Source: a phage. Taken from it: DNA of 64,000 nt. Location of the stretch: the NCBI GenBank assembly GCA_012455605.1, contig GCA_012455605.1_3618.1. One strand, given 5' to 3'. The notes under the pieces were generated by a model. It was given only the letters and a program-made list of their open reading frames with translations. It did no database searches and was not told the origin of the DNA. This document shows positions 5,111-52,987 of this stretch, in pieces (position 1 is the stretch's first letter; each line of letters begins with the position of its first letter). A program made the position numbers and the translations under genes.

Positions 5111-7540
5111 ATGAGCATGTGGTCGTTCGATTTTGAGTCATCCGGTTTGCTGGAAGACCCAGATCTTTATTATCACTGCGGTCTGTTTAAAGAGTTGAAT
5201 AAGAACCGTTTTATGCTGTTCCTTCCTCTAAATGACCGCACACACTACTCCGAGGAGGATATAGAAAAGGCTAAGAACTTCATTCTGGCAAAGAAAACTC
5301 TTTATAAAGATTTTGAAGTTCGCATAGCAGATTTTTCGGAGTTGGAAGGTTGGCTTACAGGAAATTCTGACTGGTCACCAACAGCTTTGAACTGCCATAA
5401 CTGCTACAGTTATGACTTTATGCTGATGGAAAGATTATCCGGTATTCATTTTGATATGTTCCGTGATCCTAAATGTATGGGGACTATCAACGACCACCAG
5501 GTTAACCTGTTCGATACGTTGGCAATGAGCCGAATCTTGTGGCCTGATCGCCCTTTACCGAAAGGTTGTCCGGACTCTGTATTCAACCCGGTTACTAAAA
5601 AAATGCAGCCTGTTGGTCCTCACGGCCTTATGGCATGGGGCTACGCTCTTGGTAACCAGAAAGTTCAAATTGATGACTGGCGCGATCTTCCGTTGTGGAA
5701 GTATGTGGATCGTGTATTCGAGGACGTTATCATCCAGGAGCTGCTCTGGAAAGAGCTGGTAGCGGAATCAAAAGGTGTATTCTACGGCAAATCTGACATG
5801 CAGAACTTTATGTACGATCCTGCCAAAGAGAAGCCGAAAGGATTCAAGAAGATCACCTGGAAGAACGCATTACGTCGAGGCATGCTGCAGCACTTCCTGA
5901 TGGAGCTGCAGGCCCGTCAGGGCGTATACTTCGACATAGATGGAGCTATTGCTTTACGTGACCGTTGCGATGCGTGGATGAAAGAAATCGCTGATCGTGT
6001 TGAACCACAACTGCCTTTAAAAGAACTGTCAATGTCTCAGCGGCCCAAGTTCCCTGAAAAGCCGTTTAACCAAGACGGGACAATCTCTAATAATGGTTGG
6101 AAATGGTTAAAAGATAAGCTTGGCTATCCTGTAGACATGAGCGCTTTAGAGTTCAAAGCCCCGCCTAAGAGAGCATTTACCTCTACAGGAGATGTCAGCA
6201 AGATGGGGATAAAATGGTGTGAAGAGATGGGATGCAAAGACCCCGATAAGATGGCTGATTTCTTGAGAGGCTATATTAAGGGCACTTCCACACCACACCC
6301 TTTGCCTAAAGAGTTGATGGATCAGGCAATAAGTGATCTACAGCAGAAGCGAATGCCGGACTGCAAGATACCTATGAAAATCAGCAACCAGGACGACATT
6401 AAGCGATACCTGATCAGTGCTGGCTGGCTTCCGACAATGTGGAGAACTAAGGATGTAACTAAAGACAGCAAGAAGAAAGCTTTACCTGATGCAGATGTTG
6501 ATGCACGAGTATATGCATATATGGACGAGCTTTTGGAGTCAGAGTATTGTGACCTAATTATCAACTTCTGGAACAAAACTGATGCTAAGTTCCAGACAAC
6601 CGTGCACAAGTTCCGAAGCTTTCCTAACTCCGAAAGGATTAAAAAGGAAGTATTCGGGAAAATACGTAGAAAAGCCAGGGCACTTATTACTTCTCCGCAA
6701 CTGAAAGATACGTTTGGACACCTATGCCCAAATCTTGAAAAATTGAACGGAGAGATGGCTAAAGATATCGTCTTGTGGTTATCATTGCGAAACCGCAGAT
6801 CGGTCCTTGATCCAATCAAGGAGGATAAGGTTGATACTGGTCTTCTTAATCACCCACGTTTGAAGATTGACCATAAGCTTCCTGCTAAAAGCTCTGGATT
6901 AACAAACACTTCCAGACAGAAACACAGTATTTGTGCAAACATGCCTAAACCATCTCCTAAAGTAGTTATGGGTAAAGAGATGCGTAGTCTGTGGGGTGTT
7001 CCTCCAGGATACTTTGAGATCGGTATTGACGGGTCCAACTTAGAGCAGCTTATCGGGGCTTGGGGTGCCTTTGAGTTCGACAACGGCCTGTATTACGATG
7101 TTGTAAGTAACGGAGACGCACACCAAAACAATGCTGAGGCATATACAAAAGTAGCAGGCAGAGAGGTGTCTCGTAACGACGGTAAACCTATCACGTATGG
7201 GGTTATGTATGGGGCACAAAAAGATAAAGTTGCAGATATGCTGGACATCTCTCCAGAGTTGGGACAAAGGGTAATCGATGCACTCTGGGATGCCAACCCT
7301 GGTCTTAAGGGGCGTAAAGAAGATCTGGAGAAATTCTGGGAAGCAACGGGTAAGAAGTTTATCTACTCTTTTGATGGTCATGCTATCTGGACCCGATCTA
7401 AACACTCTTTACTTAATGCATACCAACAAAATGGCGGCGCATCGTTGTGTGACTTAGTTGGGATACTCATGCACCATCAAATGGTGAAGCGTGGGTGGTA
7501 CGATGAAGGTGTTCGTCGTATTATTTATTACCATAAATAA
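5111..7540 (+). CDS. DNA polymerase, family A, with 3'-5' exonuclease domain
   Basis: Exo I FDFESSG, Exo II YSYDF; motif A-like IDGSNLEQL; motif B-like RNDGKPITYGVMYGAQ (T7 Pol-like). Confidence 0.8.
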   Translation: MSMWSFDFESSGLLEDPDLYYHCGLFKELNKNRFMLFLPLNDRTHYSEEDIEKAKNFILAKKTLYKDFEVRIADFSELEGWLTGNSDWSPTALNCHNCYSYDFMLMERLSGIHFDMFRDPKCMGTINDHQVNLFDTLAMSRILWPDRPLPKGCPDSVFNPVTKKMQPVGPHGLMAWGYALGNQKVQIDDWRDLPLWKYVDRVFEDVIIQELLWKELVAESKGVFYGKSDMQNFMYDPAKEKPKGFKKITWKNALRRGMLQHFLMELQARQGVYFDIDGAIALRDRCDAWMKEIADRVEPQLPLKELSMSQRPKFPEKPFNQDGTISNNGWKWLKDKLGYPVDMSALEFKAPPKRAFTSTGDVSKMGIKWCEEMGCKDPDKMADFLRGYIKGTSTPHPLPKELMDQAISDLQQKRMPDCKIPMKISNQDDIKRYLISAGWLPTMWRTKDVTKDSKKKALPDADVDARVYAYMDELLESEYCDLIINFWNKTDAKFQTTVHKFRSFPNSERIKKEVFGKIRRKARALITSPQLKDTFGHLCPNLEKLNGEMAKDIVLWLSLRNRRSVLDPIKEDKVDTGLLNHPRLKIDHKLPAKSSGLTNTSRQKHSICANMPKPSPKVVMGKEMRSLWGVPPGYFEIGIDGSNLEQLIGAWGAFEFDNGLYYDVVSNGDAHQNNAEAYTKVAGREVSRNDGKPITYGVMYGAQKDKVADMLDISPELGQRVIDALWDANPGLKGRKEDLEKFWEATGKKFIYSFDGHAIWTRSKHSLLNAYQQNGGASLCDLVGILMHHQMVKRGWYDEGVRRIIYYHK

Positions 7541-7674
7541 CATTGTGGCTTCGTGCAGTGATGCACGTCGAAAACCTCTTTAATTGACGGGAAGGCTAAG
7601 TTGACTTTTACACCTAAACATGGTAAAAGCTCAATATGCTAATCCGCAGCGAAGACTAAAGGGGTGTAGTTAAA

Positions 7675-8181
7675 ATGGCTAGATCAGTTGATTATCACGG
7701 ATATACCGTGTTTGATGATGGAACAATACCTTTATCGAAACGTGATCATACAACAATGTTTTGTTTTGATAATGGTCGAGGTTACCTTTGCGTAACCATG
7801 TTCATCGAAGGGAAGCAGTGCACAAAAGGTGTCCACCACTTGGTTGCCGAATGCTTTGTATCAAACCCTGATCCTGAAAGGCTCACATGGGTGAACCATA
7901 AGGACGGAAACAAATACAACAATGCATACTGGAACCTTGAATGGACCACCCCTGGTGGAAATATCAAACACGCTTATGATAATGACCTCAGAGTAAGGCC
8001 AGTCGGTGAGTATAATGCCAACGCTGTGCTGACCGAGGATGAGGTAACGGAGATTTGCGAGCTGTTACAGAGTGGTCTACGACAATGCGAGATTAGGGAT
8101 CTTGGGTACCCTTATGAGACGGTCAGAGCCATAAAGCAAAGAAGACAGTGGAAACATATCTCTAAAAACTACACCTGGTAG
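7675..8181 (+). CDS. HNH homing endonuclease (HNH_3/NUMOD-like)
   Basis: VNHKDGNKYNNAYWNLEW HNH motif; N-terminal YHGYTVFDDG; sits directly after the polymerase gene. Confidence 0.75.
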   Translation: MARSVDYHGYTVFDDGTIPLSKRDHTTMFCFDNGRGYLCVTMFIEGKQCTKGVHHLVAECFVSNPDPERLTWVNHKDGNKYNNAYWNLEWTTPGGNIKHAYDNDLRVRPVGEYNANAVLTEDEVTEICELLQSGLRQCEIRDLGYPYETVRAIKQRRQWKHISKNYTW

Positions 8182-8373
8182 TAACGTTCAGAGACTATCG
8201 AAAGCATAGCGCCAACATAAATTGGTGCGAAGAAGCGAGTAGAGTAGGCCAGCAAGTGCGGTCGAAATGGGAGGTGCCTTGGTAACAAGGTAGTGAGATA
8301 GTCCGATCCATACAGGAAACTGTATGGCTGTGCACGTAATGGTGCGGGGTAGCTTAACGACCTACCTGAACTA

Positions 8374-8730
8374 TTGGATGAGTACCAACTTCAGGTCCCT
8401 GACACACCTAAGTATAAGACTGTGTACACCTTCGACACAATCGAAGAACTGGAAGCATTTAAGGCAGAGCAGGAGGCCAAACTTCATGTGTTCGACGGTC
8501 ATAAGTACAAAAAGGCACGCAAGGATGAGGACGGAAACGAAGTGGTTGACAGAGACGGAAACACGGTGTACGATCCTATCCTGAACGATGACGGAAAGCT
8601 TGAACTTATCTGGAGCCCTGTGGGTGAAATGGTGGTGCATTGCTTCTGGCAAGCTTCTAAAATGATGGGCGTCCCGTTCCAGATCACAGGTGAATACCTG
8701 TGTGGTCGTAATTGGGGTGATTGTCACTAA
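8374..8730 (+). CDS. hypothetical protein
   Basis: 118 aa ORF; no recognisable motif. Confidence 0.4.
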   Translation: MDEYQLQVPDTPKYKTVYTFDTIEELEAFKAEQEAKLHVFDGHKYKKARKDEDGNEVVDRDGNTVYDPILNDDGKLELIWSPVGEMVVHCFWQASKMMGVPFQITGEYLCGRNWGDCH

Positions 8731-11588: not shown

Positions 11589-11954
11589 ATGGAACAAATG
11601 AACGATCAAGCGTCGGTTGCGATGAACGAGCAAGAACAACCTCAAGAATTTTTCTTAGGGTTAAGTAAAGATCAAGTGTCTCTTTTGCTAGTGCTTTCTT
11701 CTTTCATGGGAAGACTTCAGGAGCTCACACAACAACCGGAGGCTGAACAATTATTTCAGGCTCTGCGCGAAGAAGAAAAATATCGTCGTTTGGACTATGC
11801 CTTAGGTTGGGTAGCTCAACAACGAGATATGTTGATGGCCCTCTCTGGGACCACAAGTTTTGCAATGGGCCTGTTGGCTCAAGTTCAGGACAAATTAATT
11901 CAAGCAGGGTTTGCACACACGGCAAACACTAACGAAGAACAAGGAGACAAATAA
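11589..11954 (+). CDS. hypothetical protein
   Basis: 121 aa; start/stop overlap with the downstream gene. Confidence 0.45.
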   Translation: MEQMNDQASVAMNEQEQPQEFFLGLSKDQVSLLLVLSSFMGRLQELTQQPEAEQLFQALREEEKYRRLDYALGWVAQQRDMLMALSGTTSFAMGLLAQVQDKLIQAGFAHTANTNEEQGDK

Positions 11955-13180
11955 TGAGCGTTATTCAACAATTCGCTAACCCGATGAATCCGCGTGAAAC
12001 TGTTTTACTGGCTCACGGTATGATCAAGCGTGTTAGCATCAAACCTATTAAAGGGGCTGATCCTGCAACAGGTATTAAAACCACCGTGTGGCAAGGTAAG
12101 AAAATTGAATCCAGCCACACCATCTCTTTACTGATTTCTGAACTGGATTCCTCTGATAACCTGCTTCAAGGTGGCGAAGAAGTCTGGATCAGCATGGGTG
12201 ATAAGCTGCTTAAACCGGGTCATCAAGACTCTGTCTCTGTTAAGATTGATGACAAGTGGGAAACCGTAACACCAGGATGGATCGTAAATATCCCTTTGAA
12301 GGCAAACGAGCATAACGGTAAGACCTATTACAAAGGCTCACTGGCTAAGATGGTCAAGCTGGGTGCAGGAGAGGCTCCAGCAGCGACTCAGCAGCAAAAA
12401 CAGCAACAAGGTGCACAATCACAAGGCCAGAAGCAGAAACCTCAGCAGAATGCCAATCAGGACGTTTTACGCATCTATGGTGATGTGACTCAGATTGTTG
12501 GCAACGTGGTTACTGTTAATGACCACAAGATTGGCGAAGGTGCTATGGTTGTCACTGATGAGCAGCTTAAAGACCTAGTGGTAGGTGGTCGTGTTGCAGC
12601 CATTGTTGACAAAGACACTGGAAACATTATCAGTGGTTTCAAGGCCTACCCTCCTAAGGCAGAGAACGGCACTCAAGGCTCTGGTGGCAAGCGTAAATCC
12701 TCTTACGACCCTATCGGTGTGGAAACGGGGCATAGCATCAATGCGTTGCAGATCATCCTGGATCGCGGGTTTAAGGTAGACGACCCACTGGGCGTGGCTA
12801 AAACACTGCACGTAGTCACCATTGAGCTTAAGAAAGAGTATGCTCAAGCCACCAACCGAACTGAAGATGAAGTAGGTGCCAGTGTCGGTAATGCGGTGTT
12901 GAACGCTTGTCGCCGTATTGACAAGAAAACGAAAGTTGATGATTTTGCAGCGGCAATTACTGCAGAAGCAAAAGATGTCTTGACTAATCTGGCTGAGCCG
13001 TTGTACGATTGGATCAAGAACGGTGCTGGGTCAACTGACCATCAAGAACCTAAGGCTGCCAAACAGGAAGCAGCTCCACAGCAAAACACTGTAGACGCTC
13101 CTCCTGTAAATGATGGGGAAGATGACCCGATGGATCAGAATCCAGCACAGTACTCCTTTGATGATGACATCCCTTTTTAA
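11954..13180 (+). CDS. putative ssDNA-binding protein with SSB-type C-terminal tail
   Basis: Gln-rich linker and acidic C-terminus ending SFDDDIPF, identical to the E. coli SSB tip; N-terminal fold not recognised. Confidence 0.5.
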   Translation: MSVIQQFANPMNPRETVLLAHGMIKRVSIKPIKGADPATGIKTTVWQGKKIESSHTISLLISELDSSDNLLQGGEEVWISMGDKLLKPGHQDSVSVKIDDKWETVTPGWIVNIPLKANEHNGKTYYKGSLAKMVKLGAGEAPAATQQQKQQQGAQSQGQKQKPQQNANQDVLRIYGDVTQIVGNVVTVNDHKIGEGAMVVTDEQLKDLVVGGRVAAIVDKDTGNIISGFKAYPPKAENGTQGSGGKRKSSYDPIGVETGHSINALQIILDRGFKVDDPLGVAKTLHVVTIELKKEYAQATNRTEDEVGASVGNAVLNACRRIDKKTKVDDFAAAITAEAKDVLTNLAEPLYDWIKNGAGSTDHQEPKAAKQEAAPQQNTVDAPPVNDGEDDPMDQNPAQYSFDDDIPF

Positions 13181-13242: not shown

Positions 13243-13659
13243 ATGACATTAGAAGATATCATTGTTAAACCTGAGAACTATGACCAATACAACCTGTCAA
13301 CTCAATCTGTAGACCTTGGATGCGCCACGGTCAGTGCGTGGCTGGTTAACGGAAAAGAGCTAGATAAATGCTTAGAAGCTCACATGTCTATTAACAAGTT
13401 TCTGGATGAAAATACGCACTGGCTTGAGGGTGCAGGAGTATATGCTTCATGGTTGGAGAGTATGGGATTCGACTACCAATCTGAAGAAGGGTGGTGGAGC
13501 TATTTAGCTATCTGCCCAGAGACGCTGAAATGCTTCATGAAATATTCTGAAGATTTGGAGTACCGGGCGGTGGTTGATAGTGCTATTGCCCGTTATAGCC
13601 GTAAACCTTTTTCCCACGACATTAAAACTGTGGAAGAATTTGTTGAAGTTTTCTGTTGA
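13243..13659 (+). CDS. hypothetical protein
   Basis: 138 aa, AGGAGA ribosome-binding site. Confidence 0.5.
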   Translation: MTLEDIIVKPENYDQYNLSTQSVDLGCATVSAWLVNGKELDKCLEAHMSINKFLDENTHWLEGAGVYASWLESMGFDYQSEEGWWSYLAICPETLKCFMKYSEDLEYRAVVDSAIARYSRKPFSHDIKTVEEFVEVFC

Positions 13660-13755
13660 CACAGGTTGAAAGGTGTGCAATTATAACTTCATATAACGGG
13701 AGGACGCGATGAACGAAGAAAACTGGGATGTATAACTAACAGGAGGCCACTGCCC

Positions 13756-14021: not shown

Positions 14022-14447
14022 ATGACCTATGAAATGCCAAAACTGATTCGCGACGATGCCCAAAACGCTCACACCATTATTATGGGCAAACGCATGGATA
14101 TTATTTGTCATAAAGATTTCTGGGAAGGAAGTTACTTCACAGAGTATTTTGGTAAACTGGACAATGGTCTGCTGATCCAGTTCTACACCGATGCGGAAAA
14201 CAACATTCAGTGGGAGTTCGAAACTGAAGATATCCATAAACTTTTCACCTTCCTCGGTATTAAGGTTGAGGCCAAGTTTGAAGAAGGTGAGTGCGACGAT
14301 TGTGGATTCTACGAGGTAACAGATTTCTATCTTCCAAGTGGTGAGAACCTTTACTATGAAAGCCACTTCGGTAACTCCAATATGCCACAGTGCTGGGATG
14401 AGTTTTTTGAAATTGCGGAAGAGGAGCTGGCATACCGTGATTATTGA
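14022..14447 (+). CDS. hypothetical protein
   Basis: 141 aa acidic protein. Confidence 0.45.
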   Translation: MTYEMPKLIRDDAQNAHTIIMGKRMDIICHKDFWEGSYFTEYFGKLDNGLLIQFYTDAENNIQWEFETEDIHKLFTFLGIKVEAKFEEGECDDCGFYEVTDFYLPSGENLYYESHFGNSNMPQCWDEFFEIAEEELAYRDY

Positions 14448-14895
14448 TACTGTAGAGGGAGATCTAATCTCCATTTTCAAGAAAGGGTCAGGCCACATGA
14501 TCCACGGTTGTAACTGCTTTCACACAATGGGTGCAGGTATAGCGAAAGATATTGCCCGTGAGTTTCCTCAAGCACTGGCAGCCGACAAAGAGACTGCTTA
14601 TGGCAATCTAGACAAGCTGGGTATGTTTTCTTGTTGGGAGCATTTTGCCAAGAACAGGGTCGTATATGGAATCAACCTGTATACCCAGTTCTACCCAGGG
14701 CCCAATGCTGAATACTTCTCAATCATGAAAGGTTTTGAGCGAGTCAACGAGGTATTCAAAGGTGTGTCATTGCCGTTCTACATTCCTAAAATCGGATGCG
14801 GTATTGGCGGTCTAAAGTGGGAACATGTAGAAGATGTAATTAATCTTGCAACCACAGATATTGATGTGATCGTGGTGGAGTACAAAAAGTGTTGA
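14437..14895 (+). CDS. macro-domain protein (TARG1/OARD1-like ADP-ribose hydrolase candidate)
   Basis: GDLISIFKKGSGHMIHGCNCFHTMGAGIAKDIAREF resembles the TARG1 GDLF...HCIS..C.MGAGIA core; GTG start at 14437 overlaps the upstream stop. Confidence 0.6.
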   Translation: MIIDTVEGDLISIFKKGSGHMIHGCNCFHTMGAGIAKDIAREFPQALAADKETAYGNLDKLGMFSCWEHFAKNRVVYGINLYTQFYPGPNAEYFSIMKGFERVNEVFKGVSLPFYIPKIGCGIGGLKWEHVEDVINLATTDIDVIVVEYKKC

Positions 14896-14920
14896 CAGCT
14901 GACTCTTGAGGTGGTATAGT
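14892..14920 (+). promoter_or_regulatory. sigma70-like promoter (TTGACA-N17-TATAGT)
   Basis: Consensus hexamers and spacing. Confidence 0.5.
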
Positions 14921-42825: not shown

Positions 42826-43875
42826 TTAAGCTTCTTCGACAATTCCTGCACCCAGGATTTTTTCATTGAGCTCTTTTGCTGTTTTAATAATATTGTCCAC
42901 CAGACGCTTGCGGGTCTTATCTTTAACCTGAACTTCTTCACCTCCGTTCAGGGTGGTTTTCAATTGGGACAAAATGTCCTGAAGCTCTACCACAGAGAAC
43001 CGCTGCAGATCTTCCGAGGTAATCTCACCCAGTGCAATCTTAATGGTCTCACCGCTCTCCATCTGCAGATTCAGGAACACAGTGTGAACATCACCTTTCA
43101 TACCATTTGCTTTTGCAGACTCAACAGCATGAACCAGCTCGTCCAGAGATGTGCATTGGTGAATCTCTGGCAGGCCTGCTTCACCTAGCACGCCTTCTTC
43201 ATCACTTTTTGCCAAAAGCTTTTTCGGTTTCTGTCCATTCTGAATGCGCTGAATGTTTTCATCGTCCAGAATAATAGCACCAGTTCGAGATGCCAGCTCT
43301 TCCCCATCTAACCACACTTCGCCGCCAGCTGTGATGGATGCGATCTCATCTTCTGTTAGCACTCCACCGTAGTATTTTTCGATCAGGCGTTCAAAACGTT
43401 TCTTCCAGTAGTTGACCTGGGTATTCATGTTCACACCGTTACCATAGGTGCCACCTTGATAGTAGTGGAACATAAATTCTGTGTCCGGAGCCACAGTTCG
43501 TTCTTTGCAACCCAGCCATAAGATTGTTCCTGCCGAGCAGCACATCCCTTCAGCGTGTACAACAACGCTTGCCTGAGACTCGCGGAATGCCTGCAAATAC
43601 GCCATAGCGATGTGAACGCAACCACCAGGACTGTTAATAATCACCCGAATGCTTTCTTCCGGCTGAGCCATACGGATCGTCTGCAGACGAGACATATGAT
43701 CTTGTAAGTCTTCCAAATCGTCGATATAAAGAACGTGGTCAACAACAGGTGTTGGGTAGCTGTATGTTTCCATAATACCACCCGGCATACCGAACATTTT
43801 ATTACTCATAGGTTCGAAACCGTTCTGTTTTTCTTTCGTGCCGTGTACCATGGTGCTGCGATGTGTTAAATTCAT
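42826..43875 (-). CDS. ClpP-family serine protease-like protein
   Basis: INSPGGCVHIAMAY and GMCCSAGTIL resemble the ClpP INSPGG and catalytic-Ser motifs. Confidence 0.6.
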   Translation of the reverse strand: MNLTHRSTMVHGTKEKQNGFEPMSNKMFGMPGGIMETYSYPTPVVDHVLYIDDLEDLQDHMSRLQTIRMAQPEESIRVIINSPGGCVHIAMAYLQAFRESQASVVVHAEGMCCSAGTILWLGCKERTVAPDTEFMFHYYQGGTYGNGVNMNTQVNYWKKRFERLIEKYYGGVLTEDEIASITAGGEVWLDGEELASRTGAIILDDENIQRIQNGQKPKKLLAKSDEEGVLGEAGLPEIHQCTSLDELVHAVESAKANGMKGDVHTVFLNLQMESGETIKIALGEITSEDLQRFSVVELQDILSQLKTTLNGGEEVQVKDKTRKRLVDNIIKTAKELNEKILGAGIVEEA

Positions 43876-43935
43876 GAGAAATCCTTAATATTGGAAGTTG
43901 AAAGCTGTTTATTTAAACCTGATTCACATTTACCT

Positions 43936-44247
43936 TTATTTAGCAATCACTATGGAATACTTACGATTGTCAGAAGCATCACAGCTCAGTGATTGCCAGT
44001 CTACCACATACCACGTATCATTGTCAACAATTACTTTATCGCCTGTTCTGTAGCAGGTGCTGCTTTCAATAATCCGAGACTCGATAAAGAATCTGTGTCG
44101 GCGCTCACGTAGCAACGCTAAGTTGATTATATTACCACCACTGTCCTTGATCCATACATTCTTGGATCCTTTATATGCCAGAATTGTCTCGCCGTTATAG
44201 ACAAACAGGCAGTATATTTTATTCAGTTTCTCTTGTACTGTAGCCAT
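43936..44247 (-). CDS. hypothetical protein
   Basis: 103 aa. Confidence 0.45.
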   Translation of the reverse strand: MATVQEKLNKIYCLFVYNGETILAYKGSKNVWIKDSGGNIINLALLRERRHRFFIESRIIESSTCYRTGDKVIVDNDTWYVVDWQSLSCDASDNRKYSIVIAK

Positions 44248-44345
44248 ACTATCTCCTTCTCCTTGTCCGATAATAATATCTAAAGCTTACCTGTTTGTCA
44301 ACAAATGTTTTAGATATCTAAGGGTGGAATAACCACCCTTCTGTG

Positions 44346-45134
44346 TTACTCGGAAACAGGGGTCCAAATATGATTTGCACGATCCTCAATAAGATTGAGT
44401 GCAATCTGACGACCCAATCCGGAACGAACGACATCGTCTGGACTATCAAAGCTGATCATTCCAACCTCAGGATCTGGATGACGAGTAAAGAAATCCGTCA
44501 CCCATGCAAGTCCAGATTTACCAGGGATGTCACGTTGGCTATTATCGCCCATGATTACAAGGGTGGCCTGATCAGAGATCCTTGTGATAATTGACAACAT
44601 TTCTTCAGGGTTAGTTTGCTGTGCCTCGTCAATCAGGACAAAGCATCGCTCATCGAAACTACGACCACGAATGCTTTCAACCTCACAAATCTCGATACGG
44701 CTGTTCTGACCATCTCCCAGCATTGCGGCAAAAGCACCTTTGCCAACACGACGACAAATAGTGTCCATCATGCTTCGAAGATAAGGCCACAGTTTCTGCA
44801 TTGCATTACCGGGTTTAAATCCTGAAGTCTTTCCTGTCTGAACGTAAGGACGTGCAACAATGATCTTATCAATCTCGTTCTTACGCAGAAGATCACCTGC
44901 ATATGCAGATGCCATGAATGTCTTACCGGATCCAAACACACCGTTTACAATAATAATCTTACGTGACCCTAGATAATCAAGATACTTTTGCTGCTTCTTA
45001 TTCATTGGTCGGAGAGCTGGAGCGGTGTGCTCTCGTTCGTCAGCAAATTTCTCAGCAGCCTTACGCAGGCGATCAGATTTGCGAGCCTCTCTAGCTTCAT
45101 CACGCATGCGTTTTGTTTCTTTAGCTCGACCCAT
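44346..45134 (-). CDS. phoH: PhoH-like ATPase
   Basis: Walker A GVFGSGKTFMA; Walker B-like VLIDEAQQ; size and layout typical of phage PhoH. Confidence 0.8.
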   Translation of the reverse strand: MGRAKETKRMRDEAREARKSDRLRKAAEKFADEREHTAPALRPMNKKQQKYLDYLGSRKIIIVNGVFGSGKTFMASAYAGDLLRKNEIDKIIVARPYVQTGKTSGFKPGNAMQKLWPYLRSMMDTICRRVGKGAFAAMLGDGQNSRIEICEVESIRGRSFDERCFVLIDEAQQTNPEEMLSIITRISDQATLVIMGDNSQRDIPGKSGLAWVTDFFTRHPDPEVGMISFDSPDDVVRSGLGRQIALNLIEDRANHIWTPVSE

Positions 45135-45172
45135 GTTGGGACTCCTTTCAGATTGAGATGTGCCAAGTACTT

Positions 45173-45523
45173 TTACTGCAACAGTTTTTCAATAGCCGCT
45201 TCCATGCTGCTTGCAACAGCCTGAACTCGGATATTCATCTCTTCTTGGTGGATCAGCTCCTTAAGCTCTTTAATGGTAAATTCTTTAGAGAAACCTTCCA
45301 CCATAATCTTGTGTAAGGCTTCTTGCGTGCCTACTTGCAAGAACTTTTCCAGTTTGTTGGCAGAGGCTTCTAAATCAGCCCGAATACGAGGGTCATCTGT
45401 GCGATTCAGCATTAGGCGTAAGCCATCAAGATTAGTAGAAATAGCGTCTGCATGTTGAGTAACTAACCGTGGCAAAATGAGATCTACAAACTTATTAGCC
45501 AAATCGATACGTTCTTGTGTCAC
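45173..45523 (-). CDS. hypothetical protein
   Basis: 116 aa; GTG start overlapping the upstream stop (GTGA). Confidence 0.45.
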   Translation of the reverse strand: MTQERIDLANKFVDLILPRLVTQHADAISTNLDGLRLMLNRTDDPRIRADLEASANKLEKFLQVGTQEALHKIMVEGFSKEFTIKELKELIHQEEMNIRVQAVASSMEAAIEKLLQ

Positions 45524-45633
45524 TGTTGCACCCCCTCTTCATCCTCATGATATTTCTTTTCACGCTTGTGTTTTTTCTTAAGCTCAAGCGCAATTTCTTT
45601 TTTGTACGCCTTCTTCAAGGCTTTTTTAGCCAT
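45520..45633 (-). CDS. small lysine-rich protein (37 aa)
   Basis: ORF below the track cutoff; GGAGGAGG upstream; sits between a consensus promoter and the next gene. Confidence 0.4.
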   Translation of the reverse strand: MAKKALKKAYKKEIALELKKKHKREKKYHEDEEGVQQ

Positions 45634-45664
45634 TTGGCACCTCCTCCGCTTTCATTTTACGATA

Positions 45665-45694
45665 ATTATACCTATCTAAACAAAACTTTGTCAA
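45665..45694 (-). promoter_or_regulatory. sigma70-like promoter on the minus strand (TTGACA-N18-TATAAT)
   Basis: Perfect hexamers read on the reverse strand just downstream of the nrdG stop. Confidence 0.5.
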
Positions 45695-45697
45695 CAA

Positions 45698-46171
45698 CTA
45701 GTCTACCTGAACCCAACCGCCTGGTACTTTTTTAAACATTCTTTGGTTATCACTGCCTCGGAACGGTTTCTTGGTTGGTAAATCTTTTACATACTTACCG
45801 TCAATGATGATATCAGCCAGTTTAAGAACATCACTAGAGATATGGTCAAATGTGAACCCAGTATATACAAGAATAGTTTTCTTGTCACCAAATTTTTCCT
45901 TAATTTTCTCCATCAAGCTAATAATATCTGGCTCATTATAGTATGCTAAGGGTTCTCCCCCCAGCAGAGAGATACCGCACACAGATGGGTTATCTAAATC
46001 TGACAAGATTTTTTGTAAATCTTCTTCAGTGAACTCTCTCCCCTTATCTTTTGACCAAAATGCCTGATTAAAGCAACCAGGGCAAGCGTGTGGGCACCCA
46101 GATACCCACAAGGCAGTTCTAATACCTGGCCCTTCGGTGTAAGATATTTCTGCGTATCCGACAATATTCAT
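45698..46171 (-). CDS. nrdG: anaerobic ribonucleotide reductase activating protein NrdG (radical SAM)
   Basis: CPHACPGCFN radical-SAM cysteine motif; start set at MNIVGY, whose ATG overlaps the upstream small ORF's TGA. Confidence 0.85.
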   Translation of the reverse strand: MNIVGYAEISYTEGPGIRTALWVSGCPHACPGCFNQAFWSKDKGREFTEEDLQKILSDLDNPSVCGISLLGGEPLAYYNEPDIISLMEKIKEKFGDKKTILVYTGFTFDHISSDVLKLADIIIDGKYVKDLPTKKPFRGSDNQRMFKKVPGGWVQVD

Positions 46172-46284
46172 AGATACTCCGCATCGCATTCAGGGCAATG
46201 CCAAATAAAATCGTCCAGTGCCTTGCACCAACGAAGATTGCAACGACAACCGCACTTGCAAATTTTATAAATACCTGTAGACAT
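46168..46284 (-). CDS. small Cys-rich protein (38 aa), translationally coupled to nrdG
   Basis: MSTGIYKICKCGCRCNLRWCKALDDFIWHCPECDAEYL; AGGAGG 6 nt upstream; ATGA overlap with nrdG. Confidence 0.4.
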   Translation of the reverse strand: MSTGIYKICKCGCRCNLRWCKALDDFIWHCPECDAEYL

Positions 46285-46345
46285 ACTGTACCTCCTAGCT
46301 CGCTGTGCCAACAATATGCCACATCCTTGTGGATTTTGTCAAGTA

Positions 46346-48469
46346 TCAGCAACCACAACTTCCGTAGTGCTTAACCCGTTCTATAACTTCCGCTTGCTTA
46401 CCTTTATTGTAAGGACGGGAGTTTGGACTAGACAGGTACCCGGATACACGTCTGATCACACTGATCGTTCCCTCTTCATGGTTTCCACACTCTGGGCATA
46501 CAAAGCCTTTAGCTGTTGCACTAAACTCACCAGAGAAACCACACTTGAGACATTTATCCACAGGTTGGTTAATACCAAAATACATAATGTGTTTATACCC
46601 GAAGTCAACAAGAGCCTCTAAAGCATCTAAATTGTTTTTCAGATTTGGTGTCTCTACGTATCCGATGTTGCCGCCAGAGGAGATCATAGCAAAACCCTCC
46701 TCATACTCCCACTTATCAAAAGGAGAGCTATTGATCCACACTGGCTGATGGAAACTGTTGGTGAGATATTCATGCTCGTGCTTCAACACTTCAGGATATT
46801 CACGATCCAGACAGGTTGCAGCTTTATAGCATAGACTCTCAGAAGGGGTGCCGTACAAGCTAAACGCTAGTCTACTTTCCTTCTTGTATCGCTCACAAGC
46901 ATCTCTCATGTGCTGAAGTATTCCAAGAGCTAAAGCCTTGTCACCCTCCCTGCCCAAAATCTGACAGGTTTCATACACACCAATATACCCAATACTGATG
47001 GAAGCGTACCCGTCATAGAAGAGTTTATCAATACTCTCTTCAGGATCCAGGCGAGCAAGAGCGCCTTCACACCACATGATAGGGTTCTGCCCTGCTTTGG
47101 TGCCTTTCAGACGGTTAACCCTTACAAGGTGAGCTTCATATGCCAAATCCAGATACTCGTCAAGAACGGCAAAGAAATCAACACCTTCCGTCTTAGCTTT
47201 TGCCGCAATCATTGGCAGGTTAAGACTAACAACACCCAAGTTGAATCTGCCGAGGTATTTCTCCTCACCTGTTTCCAAGTCATTGTATTTGCTAAGAAAA
47301 CTCCGGCAACCCATGCTCGTTACTTTGCCATCTGTCGAGCCTGTCACTTTACGATTTAGTGGAACAGAAACAAAGTCAGGATAAATCCGCTCTGCAGAGC
47401 ATTCCAGAGCTAATCGTTTCAAATCATAGTTGGGATCTCCAGGGCTCATGTTGACACCCTCTTCTAGGAAGAACAGCACTTTAGGGAACACAGGTGTGAT
47501 ACGTTCTTCACCAAGACCCATTTTGTGGACTTTCAAATAGTTTTTGGTAATCATTCTACCAAAGACCGAGGTATCCAGTCCTAAACTTAATGTGATGAAT
47601 GGAGTTTGCCCGTTGACAGAGGTTAACGTATTGATTTGATAGAGCAAAGTCTGCATGCTGTCAAATACGTCTTTATCTGTCATTTGCATTGCAACAGTCT
47701 CAGCATCTGGCAACCAATGTTCCTGGCAAAATTTAAGGTTCTTCTCATAGGTTGCTTCAGCATACTGTGCCAGATAATGATCAATATGGCTCATAGTCTG
47801 ACCACCATATTGAGCACTAGCTACCGCACTAGAGATTTGGCTAAGGATTGTTGTTGCAACCCCTATTGACTTCGGCTTACTGACATGGGCGTTACCAATG
47901 TTGAATCCGTTTTCCAACATATCTGGATAATTTACTAAACAACAGTTTGTTAACGGACTGATCAAATAGTCAAGGTCATGCACATGGATGAAGCCTTTAT
48001 TGTGCTCTTCGGAGACACGGTCTGGCAGGATCTGTGTCGATGCAAGGTGTTTGCTAAGGATGCCTGCAAGCAGGTCACGATGAGTGTGTACATGATTGGT
48101 AGGCTTATTTGCGTTTTCTTTTGTAAATTCATCACAAGTGCGATCCAGGAAGCCACTAATATCTGCAAGCAGTTTTCCACCTGCCTCTCTGTTATTATCT
48201 CTTGTCTGCCTATACTGGATGTATTCTCTGGCTGCACATTTTAAACCCATATCCATAAGAGCGTCTTCAACAAGGATATGGATATTTTTTACAGAGATCG
48301 TGCACTGGTCGGTTGGTAGATTGTTAGCAACAACTTCATTAACCGCGCAGGCGATCCGGTAAGCTTCTTCTTCAGTATGTCCAGACTCAAGTAAGGCGGA
48401 CTCTGCCGCCTTGATCACCTTAATTCCGTTATAGAACTCTTCTCTACCGTCCCGTTTTACAACTTTCAC
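46346..48469 (-). CDS. nrdD: anaerobic ribonucleotide reductase NrdD (class III)
   Basis: N-terminal ATP-cone; C-terminal Zn ribbon CLKCG...CPECG and glycyl-radical motif RRVSGYL. Confidence 0.9.
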   Translation of the reverse strand: MKVVKRDGREEFYNGIKVIKAAESALLESGHTEEEAYRIACAVNEVVANNLPTDQCTISVKNIHILVEDALMDMGLKCAAREYIQYRQTRDNNREAGGKLLADISGFLDRTCDEFTKENANKPTNHVHTHRDLLAGILSKHLASTQILPDRVSEEHNKGFIHVHDLDYLISPLTNCCLVNYPDMLENGFNIGNAHVSKPKSIGVATTILSQISSAVASAQYGGQTMSHIDHYLAQYAEATYEKNLKFCQEHWLPDAETVAMQMTDKDVFDSMQTLLYQINTLTSVNGQTPFITLSLGLDTSVFGRMITKNYLKVHKMGLGEERITPVFPKVLFFLEEGVNMSPGDPNYDLKRLALECSAERIYPDFVSVPLNRKVTGSTDGKVTSMGCRSFLSKYNDLETGEEKYLGRFNLGVVSLNLPMIAAKAKTEGVDFFAVLDEYLDLAYEAHLVRVNRLKGTKAGQNPIMWCEGALARLDPEESIDKLFYDGYASISIGYIGVYETCQILGREGDKALALGILQHMRDACERYKKESRLAFSLYGTPSESLCYKAATCLDREYPEVLKHEHEYLTNSFHQPVWINSSPFDKWEYEEGFAMISSGGNIGYVETPNLKNNLDALEALVDFGYKHIMYFGINQPVDKCLKCGFSGEFSATAKGFVCPECGNHEEGTISVIRRVSGYLSSPNSRPYNKGKQAEVIERVKHYGSCGC

Positions 48470-48744
48470 TTTTTCTCTCCAAAACCATTCTTAACAAAAG
48501 AGATGAAATCGTCGGCACCGCCTATATGGACACTGTCAAGATCGCTTTCTAAGAAGATCTGCGGCAACGTTCTGGGGACAATTGGACTGCACTTCTCAAT
48601 AAGCTCTTCTTTTGTGTAGCCCTCGCCAAGTGTCTTATATACAAAAGGCAGACCTTTGCTGATTGCAAATTCTTTTGCTCTGACACAATGTGGGCAGTTA
48701 TCCTTACCGTAAATGATGATGAAAAAAGATTTTTCGCAGCTCAT
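48466..48744 (-). CDS. glutaredoxin/NrdH-like redoxin
   Basis: CPHC active-site motif near the N-terminus, 92 aa. Confidence 0.75.
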   Translation of the reverse strand: MSCEKSFFIIIYGKDNCPHCVRAKEFAISKGLPFVYKTLGEGYTKEELIEKCSPIVPRTLPQIFLESDLDSVHIGGADDFISFVKNGFGEKK

Positions 48745-48747
48745 ATA

Positions 48748-49836
48748 TTAAAACTCCCAAATTTCTTCTTCAGCGTCGTTAACAGTTGTGTTGACGCGGT
48801 AGTCAGTGTTCGACATTTCTTGGTTCGCCGTCTGTTGTAATGAAGGTTTCATCCACACCTGCATAAACGGTAGCGGGTCCTTTGTTGGCGGCACAAAGTC
48901 TTTGTCGATGTCGTAGTAATCATAAATCGGTGAGCAGTTATAGTCAACCCACTCTTTAAGCAACGGTGAGTTAAGACCTATAATCGCTCTTCCTTCGCTG
49001 AAAATATAGTCACTCCAACCGTACTCTTTGGTTCGTACTTCATCAAGAATCTCTTTTAACTCCCCCTTTATCTCAAGGAAGCTTTTCTCCCATGCGGGAT
49101 CATTAAGCAAGATATCAATGATGGCAAAATCACCTTTCGAATGTAGCATTTCGTCAAGCATGATTTTTTGAACAAGCTGCGCCACCTGAACAAAGATACC
49201 CTGTTCAGCTACTGCGAAAGTGCATGCAAAACTTGCAATAAACTCAATACTTTCCAGAGCTAAAAGCGCAAAAAGCGCTCTAAGAATGCATTTCCGCACA
49301 ATATCTTCTTCAACACTAGAAGGATCCAGGCGGTATTTTGCACCAATAACCTCAAGCTCTTGCATGTATTTGACAATAACGCCGGATCTGCTCAGAACGT
49401 TTTGGTTTTCCTGAATCTCTTCTATAATCTCACGGGCATTGGGGAGGCATTGTCTAACAATCTCTGAGTAAGTTAGTGCGTGAAGAACTTCAATCTCTGA
49501 CTGTTTCATCAATAGAGTGAAAAGCTCACTATTAGTGATGAATGGTGAAAAGAGGCAGATGATCGATCTTGCCGCAACGCTATCAGCCTCCCATTGCCAC
49601 ATCAAGGTCTGCACCATCACGTCATAAGTTGACTTTGAGCATGTTACAAAATCTGAAATAGATTGCGACAAATCCACTTCATCCTCTGCCCAATCTTGCT
49701 CTTTTTGTTTTTTGTATAGTTCAAACAGTTGTGGATATTTTTTGTTGATAGAGTCGTACATACCCATTTGCTGTCCCAGAAACAGCGGATAGTCACCAGT
49801 TTTATGAGCGGTGTTCTCAGCATTAAATACAGCCAT
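48748..49836 (-). CDS. nrdB: ribonucleotide reductase beta subunit NrdB (class I)
   Basis: Di-iron ligand pattern and typical C-terminal tail; start moved to MAVFNAEN to avoid overlapping nrdA. Confidence 0.85.
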   Translation of the reverse strand: MAVFNAENTAHKTGDYPLFLGQQMGMYDSINKKYPQLFELYKKQKEQDWAEDEVDLSQSISDFVTCSKSTYDVMVQTLMWQWEADSVAARSIICLFSPFITNSELFTLLMKQSEIEVLHALTYSEIVRQCLPNAREIIEEIQENQNVLSRSGVIVKYMQELEVIGAKYRLDPSSVEEDIVRKCILRALFALLALESIEFIASFACTFAVAEQGIFVQVAQLVQKIMLDEMLHSKGDFAIIDILLNDPAWEKSFLEIKGELKEILDEVRTKEYGWSDYIFSEGRAIIGLNSPLLKEWVDYNCSPIYDYYDIDKDFVPPTKDPLPFMQVWMKPSLQQTANQEMSNTDYRVNTTVNDAEEEIWEF

Positions 49837-49874
49837 TATTCTACCTCTAAAATGGGGCCGAAGCCCCTTTAAAA

Positions 49875-52190: not shown

Positions 52191-52495
52191 TTTGCTTCCT
52201 CCACTTCACTAACGTATTTATCAAGGCAGGTATCAGTATCTTGCTGGATAAAAGTATCCTCTTCTACAGAGATATTTATAATTTTACCTGTATACTCGTC
52301 ATAATAGACATCATCATACATTTTAATATCGTTTGTCAGGCCATTGAACCAAAGCCAACCAACATACTCTGCCCGACTTGCAAAACCAAGATCCTTCCAC
52401 TTGGAGTTATGACTCATCTTCACCACCTTAGCTTTCAATACCGAATAATTTTTCCAGGCGATGCAGATCTTCAAAATTGAAAGGTTCATCAACAA
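52187..52495 (-). CDS. hypothetical protein
   Basis: 102 aa; true start may be internal. Confidence 0.4.
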   Translation of the reverse strand: MLMNLSILKICIAWKNYSVLKAKVVKMSHNSKWKDLGFASRAEYVGWLWFNGLTNDIKMYDDVYYDEYTGKIINISVEEDTFIQQDTDTCLDKYVSEVEEAN

Positions 52496-52889
52496 TATGA
52501 ATATCTTCAGCCTTTTCAGATTGTTTTGTATACTTTCTTACATTAACACGATCTTCTACAGGGATATCATACGGGAGATCTTGAACAAGCATTGCCTCAC
52601 CAGGTGCTTTATCTACATCTAAAATATCTACACCGTTATACATTTGTGGGTATCTAAAGTCTGCACGCATGACACCAGCAAATACATCTGCCTTTCGATA
52701 ATGTGTTGGCTTATTTTTGCATCGAACGTTTTTTCCACGAAGAACATCAATACTTTTTAAATCAAACCCTACGGCAAAGAGTGCAGCTCGGAGACCGTTT
52801 CGTGTGCGAACGTTAAACCCGGGGACGGTAGATAGAAAATCTAAAGTAACTGAAATAAATGTCTTTTTAGGAATCATAACATTACTCAT
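52428..52889 (-). CDS. hypothetical protein
   Basis: Start moved to MSNVMIPKK with GGAGA upstream, compatible with the promoter at 52930; no confident motif. Confidence 0.4.
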   Translation of the reverse strand: MSNVMIPKKTFISVTLDFLSTVPGFNVRTRNGLRAALFAVGFDLKSIDVLRGKNVRCKNKPTHYRKADVFAGVMRADFRYPQMYNGVDILDVDKAPGEAMLVQDLPYDIPVEDRVNVRKYTKQSEKAEDIHIVDEPFNFEDLHRLEKLFGIES

Positions 52890-52929
52890 ATCTGTCTCCA
52901 TTTCTGGCTCACCAACAAAGTGAGCCATT

Positions 52930-52958
52930 ATTATAGATTATCTAATACTATTAGTCAA
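52930..52958 (-). promoter_or_regulatory. sigma70-like promoter on the minus strand (TTGACT-N17-TATAAT)
   Basis: Near-perfect hexamers read on the reverse strand. Confidence 0.5.
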
Positions 52959-52987
52959 CACAAAAGTTACCTATCGCTGTGATAGGA

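What the first reader, a model, noticed from the sequence alone, without database searches (positions are those of the whole stretch)
14437..14895. Phage-encoded macro-domain protein, a candidate counter to ADP-ribosylation-based defence
The ORF carries a GDL...HGCNCFHTMGAGIA core that matches the TARG1/OARD1-type macrodomain signature. Macrodomains remove ADP-ribose from proteins or nucleic acids; a phage copy embedded among early small genes could reverse host ADP-ribosyltransferase toxins of the DarT type. It starts at a GTG that overlaps the upstream stop.
Basis: partly seen in the sequence, partly recalled or inferred. Interest (0 to 1): 0.7.

Follow-up and report, generated by a model that had tools for sequence, protein, structure and literature searches.

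The report
Phage macrodomain gene, T4 AdfM-type

Summary
ORF 14437(GTG)..14895 (+), 152 aa, carries the quoted GDL...HGCNCFHTMGAGIA core, and its start overlaps the upstream ORF by 11 nt.

The window is a Vequintavirus (rV5-like) coliphage. The protein aligns end to end with T4 Tk.4 (38% identity, E 2e-42). A 67%-identical copy sits at the tk.4 position of a Krischvirus.

Deleting tk.4 (adfM) sensitises T4 to DarTG2 (2025 preprint). PhiKZ AdfM, a distant macrodomain, removes DarT2's ADP-ribose from DNA in vitro (Cell Rep 2026).

That Gln matches SCO6735 Gln85, which is essential for thymidine-ADP-ribose-DNA hydrolysis.

It is a new member of a known kind, of low to moderate interest.

The parts
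14437..14895 (+). Macrodomain gene (152 aa plus stop), a T4 Tk.4/AdfM-type stand-alone ALC1-like macrodomain
14420..14426 (+). Shine-Dalgarno-like AGAGGAG, 10 nt upstream of the GTG start
   Evidence: Read directly from the sequence.
14503..14544 (+). H23-G-C-N26-C...M31-G-A-G-I-A36: first ADP-ribose-binding loop. N26 aligns with DarG N22 and SCO6735 N27; H23 aligns with SCO6735 H24 and Poa1p H23.
   Evidence: Invariant columns H23 G24 N26 C27 M31 G32 G34 A36 in the 45-sequence alignment. Alignments to PDB chains. Hx[CA]NC found in 144/150 representatives.
14680..14688 (+). Y82-T83-Q84: family-invariant Gln at the position of DarG Lys80, TARG1 Lys84 and SCO6735 Gln85
   Evidence: Profile-to-PDB alignments. 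Invariant in A1/A2. Y[TS]Q found in 142/150 representatives. The structural equivalence and the dead SCO6735 Q85A/E mutants come from PMC9411070.
14785..14811 (+). P117-K-I-G-C-G-I-G-G125: glycine-rich diphosphate-binding loop. TARG1 Asp125 corresponds to Gly124 here.
   Evidence: Motif found in 137/150 representatives.
14022..14447 (+). Upstream 141-aa ORF of unknown function (phrog_8157), overlapping the macro start by 11 nt and probably translationally coupled. The pairing is not conserved outside Vequintavirus.
   Evidence: No Pfam or PADLOC hit. The homolog in Krischvirus JSE lies next to dam, not next to the macro gene. The model had pLDDT 55 and was unusable.
13656..13684 (+). Sigma-70-like promoter (TTGACA-17-AATTAT with extended -10 TG), the likely start of the unit 65-aa ORF / 141-aa ORF / macro gene
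   Evidence: Consensus scan and sequence. Inference only.
14892..14920 (+). Sigma-70-like promoter (TTGACA-17-TATAGT, TG, 11/12) overlapping the macro stop codon and serving the next small genes. It marks the 3' boundary of the unit.
   Evidence: and sequence.

Best explanation
Identity: the gene encodes a stand-alone, catalytically competent ALC1/TARG1-class macrodomain. It is the Vequintavirus member of the T4 Tk.4 = AdfM ('anti-DarT factor macrodomain') family.

Proposed mechanism: the gene is probably expressed from host-type promoters, together with two small upstream ORFs, in the region just downstream of the replication genes. The protein binds ADP-ribose attached by a DarT2-type toxin to thymidine in single-stranded phage DNA. 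It then hydrolyses the ribose-base bond, releasing ADP-ribose and restoring a replicable template. It would therefore act as an 'orphan antitoxin' against DarTG2-type defence.

Chemistry: probably the lysine-independent, Gln-dependent kind described for SCO6735. Gln84 would position the substrate and a water network, while Asn26 and the two Gly-rich loops hold the distal ribose and diphosphate.

Shown here: the fold, the class, family membership, conservation of the active-site motifs, and purifying selection.

Inferred: substrate (dT-ADPr ssDNA), timing of expression, and the in vivo anti-DarTG2 role in this phage.
For: Fold and class:
- Pfam Macro above its gathering score.
- NCBIfam DarG E 8.7e-12 and PADLOC DarG E 1.3e-12, both over the macro part.
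- Model pLDDT 95.7, pTM 0.90.
- Foldseek PDB top hits are TARG1, Poa1p, DarG, BT1257, DarTG and SCO6735.

Family membership:
- Full-length alignment to T4 Tk.4, 38% identity, E 2e-42.
- The Krischvirus UPWr_E1 copy, 67% identical, lies between regB and tk, the tk.4 position, and is 43% identical to T4 Tk.4.
- All of these fall in phrog_335.
- The second-best BFVD match is annotated tk.4 (Acinetobacter phage 133), TM 0.88.

Function of relatives:
- A T4 tk.4 knockout is sensitive to DarTG2 (10.1101/2025.11.20.689424).
- PhiKZ AdfM removes DarT2 ADP-ribose from DNA in vitro (PMC13309987).
- SCO6735, which has Gln at the same position, cleaves dT-ADPr DNA and rescues DarT toxicity; its Q85A/E mutants are dead (PMC9411070).

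Active site:
- Invariant H23, N26, G32, G34, Y82-T83-Q84, P117, G120 and G122.
- Q84 aligns to DarG K80, TARG1 K84 and SCO6735 Q85.

Selection and conservation:
- dN/dS 0.09-0.11.
- 119 records carry a protein match of at least 80% identity, close to the 120 records that hold this genome region.

Context:
- Co-directional with, and downstream of, the primase/helicase, helicase and DNA polymerase genes.
- Flanked by sigma-70-like promoters.
Against: - There is no experiment on this protein or on any Vequintavirus, and I found no DarTG2 plating data for rV5-like phages.
- T4 AdfM has genetic evidence only, from a preprint. No enzymology has been done on any Gln-type phage macrodomain.
- Identity to T4 Tk.4 is only 38%, and macrodomains are promiscuous across protein, nucleic-acid and small-molecule ADPr derivatives.
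- The protein lacks the DarG catalytic Lys. It also lacks SCO6735's five-residue-longer, Lys-rich mobile loop, which was credited with efficient DNA binding.
- It is mildly acidic (pI about 5.9), which is not obviously a DNA-binding surface.
- The only biochemically characterised phage AdfM (PhiKZ gp104) is a distant relative, 22% identical and Lys-type.
Confidence: 0.68

Rival explanations
1. It is a small-molecule ADP-ribose-derivative hydrolase, the historical 'phosphatase / A1pp' annotation. On this reading it is a Poa1p-like ADP-ribose-1''-phosphate phosphatase or O-acetyl-ADP-ribose deacetylase. It would clean up by-products of RNA repair (the KptA/Tpt1 pathway) or of sirtuin reactions rather than repair DNA.
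For: - It shares the H-x-C-N-C...G-x-G-I-A motif almost residue for residue (Poa1p 'ihSCNCngsWGgGIA').
- Iyer et al. 2022 argued that many phage Macro domains may prefer soluble ADPr derivatives (PMC9503650).
Against: - The 'phosphatase' label is a domain-name inheritance, not a measurement.
- In T4 the only phenotype found for tk.4 is DarTG2 sensitivity.
- None of the 22 window proteins scanned against Pfam matched a KptA/Tpt1, 2H phosphoesterase, RNA ligase or sirtuin family. The remaining small ORFs of the window were not scanned.
- In-vitro Appr1p phosphatase activity is common and weak among macrodomains (my own knowledge), so it would not exclude the DNA role.
Confidence: 0.12
2. It reverses ADP-ribosylation of proteins or RNA rather than DNA. 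Candidate sources are mRNA ADP-ribosylation by CmdTAC-type systems, host or rival-phage protein ADP-ribosyltransferases, or the phage's own ADP-ribosyltransferase acting as a regulatory eraser.
For: - TARG1 and SCO6735, both close structural relatives, also de-modify proteins (PMC9411070).
- The top Foldseek PDB hit is TARG1.
- The AdfN paper notes that phage ADPr erasers might also act on RNA-targeting systems (PMC11825919).
Against: - The TARG1 protein-deglycosylation dyad Lys84/Asp125 is absent (Gln84/Gly124).
- The SCO6735 paper concludes that the enzyme uses a different reaction mechanism on protein substrates than on DNA.
- No ART domain was seen among the window ORFs scanned, though only 64 kb of about 137 kb was available.
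- The T4 ortholog's phenotype is specific to DarTG2 in the screens reported.
Confidence: 0.1
3. It neutralises DarT, or another NAD-dependent defence such as Thoeris or other ADPR-signal systems, without catalysis on DNA. It could bind and inhibit the toxin, or bind and degrade an ADPR-derived signal.
For: - Catalytically dead SCO6735, DarG and TARG1 still inhibit DarT in vitro by interaction (PMC9411070).
- ICP1 AdfB works by binding DarT (PMC11481870).
Against: - Strict invariance of the catalytic-site residues (N26, Q84, Gly loops) across more than 140 of 150 diverse representatives argues for enzymatic function.
- The protein has no DarG-like C-terminal DarT-binding domain: it is 152 aa, and the DarG models match only their first ~143 positions.
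- Similarity to ThsA Macro is far lower than to the ALC1-like class.
Confidence: 0.07

Closest known systems
T4 Tk.4 = AdfM (anti-DarT factor macrodomain; HIDEN-SEQ preprint, bioRxiv 10.1101/2025.11.20.689424)
   Same: - Same family: full-length alignment, 38% identity, E 2e-42, both in phrog_335.
- Same size (152 vs 155 aa).
- Same stand-alone architecture.
- Same invariant HGCNCFHTMG.G and NLYTQF.PGPN motifs, including Gln at the DarG-Lys position.
   Different: - Different phage lineage (Vequintavirus vs Tequatrovirus) and a different neighbourhood: downstream of the replication genes and coupled to a 141-aa ORF, instead of between vs and tk.3.
- GTG rather than ATG start.
- Anti-DarTG2 activity is shown genetically only for T4.
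PhiKZ gp104 = AdfM of chimalliviruses (Cell Rep 2026, PMC13309987)
   Same: - Stand-alone phage macrodomain of the ALC1-like class.
- Falls in the same broad PHROG (335).
- Conserved Asn (N23 in PhiKZ, N26 here).
- Demonstrated to remove DarT2 ADP-ribose from DNA.
   Different: - Only 22% identical (pairwise E 8e-5).
- PhiKZ keeps the DarG-type catalytic Lys (FPTK, K78), whereas this family has YTQ.
- PhiKZ AdfM is imported into a phage nucleus, which Vequintaviruses lack.
Streptomyces coelicolor SCO6735 / Bacteroides BT1257 subclass of ALC1-like macrodomains (PDB 5E3B, 2FG1/2AFC)
   Same: - Gln at the catalytic-Lys position (Q85 in SCO6735, Q84 here).
- H-x-C-N motif.
- No Lys/Asp dyad.
- SCO6735 hydrolyses dT-ADPr DNA and neutralises DarT.
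   Different: - About 22% identity.
- The phage family lacks the five-residue-longer Lys-containing 'mobile loop' that defines the SCO6735 subclass. It has a short, conserved P-G-P turn instead.
- SCO6735 K34 and K89 are not conserved here.
DarG2 antitoxin macrodomain (T. aquaticus 5M31/5M3E, M. tuberculosis 5M3I, Thermosipho DarTG 7OMU)
   Same: - NCBIfam and PADLOC DarG models hit at E about 1e-12.
- Conserved Asn and Gly loops.
   Different: - No C-terminal DarT-binding domain.
- No adjacent darT.
- Catalytic Lys80 replaced by Gln.
- The score (44.9 bits) is far below the NCBIfam DarG equivalog cut-off of 250 bits.
Human TARG1/OARD1 (PDB 4J5S)
   Same: - Top Foldseek hit (E 3.7e-10, TM 0.73-0.79).
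- Same class.
   Different: - Catalytic Lys84 is Gln here and Asp125 is Gly.
- About 23% identity.
- TARG1 is a eukaryotic protein-Glu/Asp and DNA de-ADP-ribosylase.

Membership tests
Macrodomain superfamily (Pfam PF01661), ALC1/TARG1-like class | Three-layer alpha/beta/alpha macro fold, closest to ALC1-like members rather than to MacroD, PARG or viral nsP3 types | tested here: met
   [not shown]
Macrodomain superfamily (Pfam PF01661), ALC1/TARG1-like class | Conserved ADP-ribose-binding loops: Asn before the G-x-G loop, and a second Gly-rich diphosphate loop | tested here: met
   N26, M31-G-A-G-I-A36 and P117-x-I-G-C-G-I-G-G125 are invariant or nearly invariant.
T4 Tk.4 / AdfM family (T4-type anti-DarT factor macrodomain) | Full-length sequence homology to T4 Tk.4, with the shared HGCNC and NxYTQ motifs | tested here: met
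   38% identity, E 2e-42, residues 2-150. Same PHROG. A 67%-identical homolog sits at the tk.4 locus of Krischvirus UPWr_E1.
T4 Tk.4 / AdfM family (T4-type anti-DarT factor macrodomain) | Stand-alone phage-encoded macrodomain with no toxin partner ('orphan antitoxin') | tested here: met
   The 152-aa protein consists of the macrodomain only. None of the nine surrounding ORFs scanned has a hit to any Pfam family, DarT's included. Two non-Vequintavirus family members examined also lack a DarT neighbour.
T4 Tk.4 / AdfM family (T4-type anti-DarT factor macrodomain) | Loss of the gene sensitises the phage to DarTG2 | not testable with these tools
   Shown only for T4. No data exist for Vequintavirus.
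DarG2 antitoxin (NCBIfam NF048014 equivalog) | Two-domain protein (macrodomain plus C-terminal DarT-binding domain) encoded next to darT | tested here: not met
   Only model positions 3-143 of 338 are matched, at 44.9 bits against a cut-off of 250. The protein ends at residue 152. No darT is adjacent.
DarG2 antitoxin (NCBIfam NF048014 equivalog) | Catalytic Lys80 | tested here: not met
   Q84 aligns with the first Lys of 'PTKK' in Mtb DarG 5M3I. The residue is invariant Gln across the family.
TARG1/OARD1 | Catalytic dyad Lys84 / Asp125 | tested here: not met
   The profile alignment to 4J5R places Q84 on TARG1 K84 and G124 on D125.
SCO6735/BT1257 subclass of ALC1-like macrodomains | Gln at the position of the DarG/TARG1 catalytic Lys, essential for dT-ADPr hydrolysis | tested here: met
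   Q84 aligns with Gln of 'NMIGQH' (chain residue 105, native Q85) in 5E3B and with the equivalent Gln in 2FG1. Mutagenesis is reported in PMC9411070.
SCO6735/BT1257 subclass of ALC1-like macrodomains | Mobile loop five residues longer than in DarG/TARG1, carrying Lys89/Lys93 | tested here: not met
   The HMM alignment shows a 5-6-residue insertion in 5E3B and 2FG1 relative to the phage profile, directly after the Gln. The phage family has the short 'F-x-P-G-P' turn. The definition of the loop comes from PMC9411070.
Poa1p-type ADP-ribose-1''-phosphate phosphatase | Phosphatase activity on ADP-ribose-1''-phosphate | not testable with these tools
   [not shown]

The most novel reading that the evidence does not exclude
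The Tk.4-type phage macrodomains, including this one, may form a third mechanistic subtype of DNA ADP-ribosylglycohydrolase. Like SCO6735 they have an invariant Gln in place of the catalytic Lys. Unlike SCO6735 they keep the short DarG-length loop and carry their own invariant H-G-C-N-C, Asp50 and P-G-P signatures. Such an enzyme might have a broader or different substrate range than DarG, for example other DarT families or bases, or RNA- or protein-linked ADP-ribose. That would make it a general eraser against ADP-ribosylating defences rather than a DarTG2-specific one.

A more speculative add-on: the acidic 141-aa ORF translationally coupled to it in Vequintavirus could be a DarT-binding partner, giving a 'split DarG' arrangement. 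I found no comparative or structural support for this.
Probability: 0.2. Interest if true: 0.5.

Novelty: new member of a known kind. Interest (0 to 1): 0.3.

Why it matters
If the inference holds, rV5-like coliphages carry a constitutive enzymatic counter to DarTG2-type DNA ADP-ribosylation. These phages are widely used as typing, biocontrol and therapy candidates against E. coli O157 and other pathotypes. The gene would help predict host range on DarTG-bearing strains.

It would also extend the AdfM concept from T4 and chimalliviruses to a third major myovirus lineage. By tblastn the protein has matches in about 2,700 of 50,697 phage records, a broad set that also takes in distant macrodomains.

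The invariant Gln-type active site gives a simple target for mutagenesis. It could show whether phage erasers use the lysine-independent chemistry proposed for SCO6735.

It does not open a new question. The kind of gene and its likely role were published in 2025-2026, and relatives are already annotated 'macro domain protein'.

Tried and rejected
1. 'Split DarG' idea: that the overlapping upstream 141-aa acidic ORF supplies a DarT-binding domain.
- It has no Pfam or PADLOC hit.
- Only 4 homologs turned up in the 5.8-billion-protein search.
- Its Krischvirus homolog lies next to dam, not next to the macro gene.
- The AlphaFold model had pLDDT 55, so no fold search was warranted.
- Result: unsupported, but not formally excluded.

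2. DarT-linked cellular relatives, as evidence for an antitoxin origin.
- A Pelagimonas chromosomal copy and a 195-kb phage-like contig copy both lack DarT neighbours.

3. Companion NAD/ADP-ribose genes in the window.
- None of the 22 window proteins scanned against Pfam matched an ART, NADAR or NAD-salvage family.
- The large minus-strand ORFs are ClpP-like, PhoH, NrdD, NrdAB and ThyX. The small neighbours have no Pfam hits.
- The NADAR AdfN reported for 'Vequintavirinae' Bas60-62 belongs to the phi92-like relatives, not to Vequintavirus proper.

4. Phenotype data for rV5-like phages on DarTG2: none found in the literature.

5. Residue-level alignment of Poa1p at the Q84 position.
- Not obtained. 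Only the N- and C-terminal segments aligned, and Poa1p ranked below the five alignments printed.
- A Poa1p literature search returned only five papers that mention it in passing, none a structural paper on Poa1p, and I opened none of them.

6. Alternative longer start (GTG 14338, 185 aa): rejected on homolog N-termini, the Shine-Dalgarno position and existing annotations.
Full report
**Observation**

The + strand ORF runs from GTG 14437 to the TGA at 14893-14895 and encodes 152 aa. It contains the quoted G8-D-L10 and H23-G-C-N-C-F-H-T-M-G-A-G-I-A36.

The GTG lies 11 nt inside the preceding ORF (14022..14447, stop 14445-14447). An AGAGGAG run at 14420-14426 precedes it by 10 nt. The frame is open back to 14338, but several observations fix the start at 14437:
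- Homologs from many phages, including T4 Tk.4, begin at the equivalent codon.
- GenBank annotators chose the same start in A51.2 and DrSchubert.
- The GTG is conserved in Vequintavirus and is an ATG in Krischvirus and T4.

**Genome identity**

The window is 95-97% identical over 3.5 kb to about 120 rV5-like Vequintavirus coliphages. Protein matches of at least 80% identity occur in 119 records, which is close to that count.

It is annotated variously as 'macro domain protein', 'phosphatase' or 'hypothetical protein'.

dN/dS is 0.09 against A51.2 and 0.11 against DrSchubert, whose protein is 82% identical. It is a real gene under purifying selection.

**What it is**

Sequence-profile evidence:
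- Pfam Macro scores 25.9 bits against a cut-off of 22.
- phrog_335 gives E 1.9e-59.
- NCBIfam DarG gives E 8.7e-12 and PADLOC DarG 1.3e-12. Both match only the first ~143 positions of two-domain models, far below the equivalog cut-off.

Structural evidence, from an AlphaFold2 model built on 44 homologs (pLDDT 95.7, pTM 0.90):
- Foldseek against the PDB returns TARG1, Poa1p, DarG (T. aquaticus, M. tuberculosis), BT1257, the Thermosipho DarTG fusion and SCO6735 as top hits.

**Family placement**

- The protein aligns end to end with T4 Tk.4 at 38% identity, E 2e-42, sharing HGCNCFHTMG.G and NLYTQF.PGPN.
- A 67%-identical copy in the T4-like Krischvirus UPWr_E1 sits between regB and tk, exactly where tk.4 lies in T4. 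That copy is 43% identical to T4 Tk.4.
- T4 Tk.4, the Krischvirus copy and the window protein all fall in phrog_335.
- The family is very large. tblastn finds 2,741 phage records. An exhaustive profile search finds 1,280 50%-identity clusters at E<=1e-30.

**What is known about relatives**

- T4 tk.4: a 2025 preprint found it to be the single transposon-sequencing hit under DarTG2. A clean deletion sensitised T4 to DarTG2, and the gene was renamed adfM. No enzymology was reported (10.1101/2025.11.20.689424).
- PhiKZ gp104: independently also named AdfM. It was shown to remove DarT2-installed ADP-ribose from DNA in vitro and to protect chimalliviruses (PMC13309987).
- SCO6735: a bacterial ALC1-like macrodomain that cleaves thymidine-linked ADP-ribose on DNA and rescues DarT toxicity (PMC9411070).

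**Active site**

In a 45-sequence alignment the invariant positions are H23, G24, N26, C27, M31, G32, G34, A36, D50, N80, Y82, T83, Q84, P117, G120 and G122.

Among the 150 best representatives of the exhaustive search:
- 142 have Y[TS]Q.
- 144 have Hx[CA]NC.
- 137 have the P-x-I-G-x-G-x-G-G loop.

Profile-to-PDB alignments place Q84 on the first Lys of 'PTKK' in Mtb DarG and on K84 of TARG1. They also place it on the Gln of 'NMIGQH' in SCO6735 and BT1257. Counting along the 5E3B chain, that Gln is native Gln85.

The SCO6735 paper shows by structural superposition that Gln85 is equivalent to DarG Lys80 and TARG1 Lys84, and that Q85A and Q85E are inactive.

TARG1 Asp125 corresponds to Gly124 here. 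The protein is therefore not TARG1-like or DarG-like in its catalytic residues. It is SCO6735-like in the Gln.

It differs from SCO6735 in one respect. It lacks the five-residue-longer Lys-bearing mobile loop that defines the SCO6735/BT1257 subclass.

PhiKZ AdfM is only 22% identical and keeps the DarG-type Lys (FPTK). The two proteins called AdfM thus represent different active-site subtypes, and the window protein belongs with the T4 type.

**Context**

The gene lies on the same strand as, and downstream of, an adenine methyltransferase, primase/helicase, helicase and DNA polymerase. A 408-aa protein ending in the SSB-like tail FDDDIPF also lies upstream.

A terminator-like hairpin follows the 408-aa gene (13196-13217). 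A sigma-70-like promoter at 13656-13684 precedes a 65-aa ORF, the 141-aa ORF and the macro gene. A second, stronger promoter at 14892-14920 overlaps the macro stop codon. This fits transcription by host RNA polymerase early in infection, but that is inference.

The neighbours have no Pfam hits and fall in PHROGs of unknown function.

The overlapping 141-aa ORF is confined to Vequintavirus and to about 59 records at under 60% identity; those listed are Krischvirus-type (JSE-like) phages. In JSE it lies next to dam rather than next to the macro gene. The pairing is lineage-specific, and its structure could not be modelled (pLDDT 55).

Two non-Vequintavirus family members that I examined are stand-alone genes without DarT neighbours.

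**Mechanism**

Best explanation (confidence about 0.68): a stand-alone 'orphan antitoxin' enzyme that hydrolyses ADP-ribose from thymidine on single-stranded phage DNA modified by DarT2-type toxins. It would use Gln84, Asn26 and the two Gly loops, and would restore replication.

Rivals:
- A small-molecule Appr1p/OAADPr hydrolase, the source of the 'phosphatase' label. This is supported only by structural closeness to Poa1p and by domain-name history.
- A protein or RNA de-ADP-ribosylase.
- Non-catalytic toxin or signal binding, which the strict conservation of catalytic residues makes unlikely.

**Novelty and score**

The kind of gene, a phage macrodomain that counters DarTG2, was published in 2025-2026, and relatives are already annotated as macro domain proteins. 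What is new is limited to two points. The first is the assignment of the Vequintavirus gene to the T4-type AdfM family. The second is the explicit note that this family has a Gln-type active site with a short loop.

I rate it a new member of a known kind, interest about 0.3.

Noticed in passing
window 5111..8727 (+): exon 1 5111..7534, insertion 7535..8376, exon 2 8377..8727: The family A DNA polymerase gene is split. Residues 1-808 and 809-925 match the intact 925-aa polymerase of phage A51.2 at 99% identity. They are separated by an 842-bp insertion. The insertion matches the full Rfam group I intron model (RF00028; window 7525..8326; 40.6 bits, below the gathering score of 50; E 1.3e-8). 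It carries a 168-aa ORF (7675..8181) with a weak HNH_3 hit (E 0.0028). A51.2 has the intron-less allele.
   Followed up: partly
search results for window 13000-16500: Sixteen GenBank records named 'Campylobacter phage' (MG0656xx, host C. jejuni) are 95-97% identical to this E. coli Vequintavirus. Most of them have no annotation. The host attribution looks doubtful.
   Followed up: no
L003 (Escherichia phage UPWr_E1, Krischvirus) 3001-3456; window 14437-14895: The tk.4-position macrodomain of this T4-like Krischvirus is much closer to the Vequintavirus protein (67% identity) than to T4 Tk.4 (43%). The 141-aa upstream ORF also has its only non-Vequintavirus homologs in Krischvirus-type phages (37% identity). 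This suggests gene exchange between these two unrelated coliphage lineages.
   Followed up: partly
window 13654-13684 and 14890-14920 (+): In two places a gene's TGA stop codon is embedded in the -35 box of a strong sigma-70-like promoter (…TGT TGA CA… = TTGACA). The first is at the end of ORF 13243..13659 and the second at the end of the macro gene. A perfect 12/12 promoter also lies at 15345-15372. This looks like a recurring compact gene-end/promoter module in this region.
   Followed up: no
window 11954..13180 (+): A 408-aa protein (phrog_4477, unknown function) ends in …SFDDDIPF, the acidic tail typical of E. coli SSB, and has a Gln/Gly-rich linker. It has no Pfam hit and no sequence match in the PDB. 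It may be a divergent single-stranded-DNA-binding protein that recruits host SSB-interacting proteins. It lies 1.2 kb upstream of the macro gene.
   Followed up: partly
window 14022..14447 (+): A 141-aa acidic ORF overlaps the macro gene's start by 11 nt. It has conserved Cys residues (C29; C91-x-x-C94). Only 4 homologous clusters were found among 5.8 billion proteins. There is no family annotation, and the AlphaFold model was poor (pLDDT 55). Function unknown.
   Followed up: partly
window 42826..53971 (-): A nucleotide-metabolism block lies on the opposite strand. It contains a ClpP-like protease, PhoH, the anaerobic ribonucleotide reductase NrdD, NrdB, NrdA and a ThyX-like protein. ARAGORN found no tRNA genes anywhere in the 64-kb window.
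   Followed up: no
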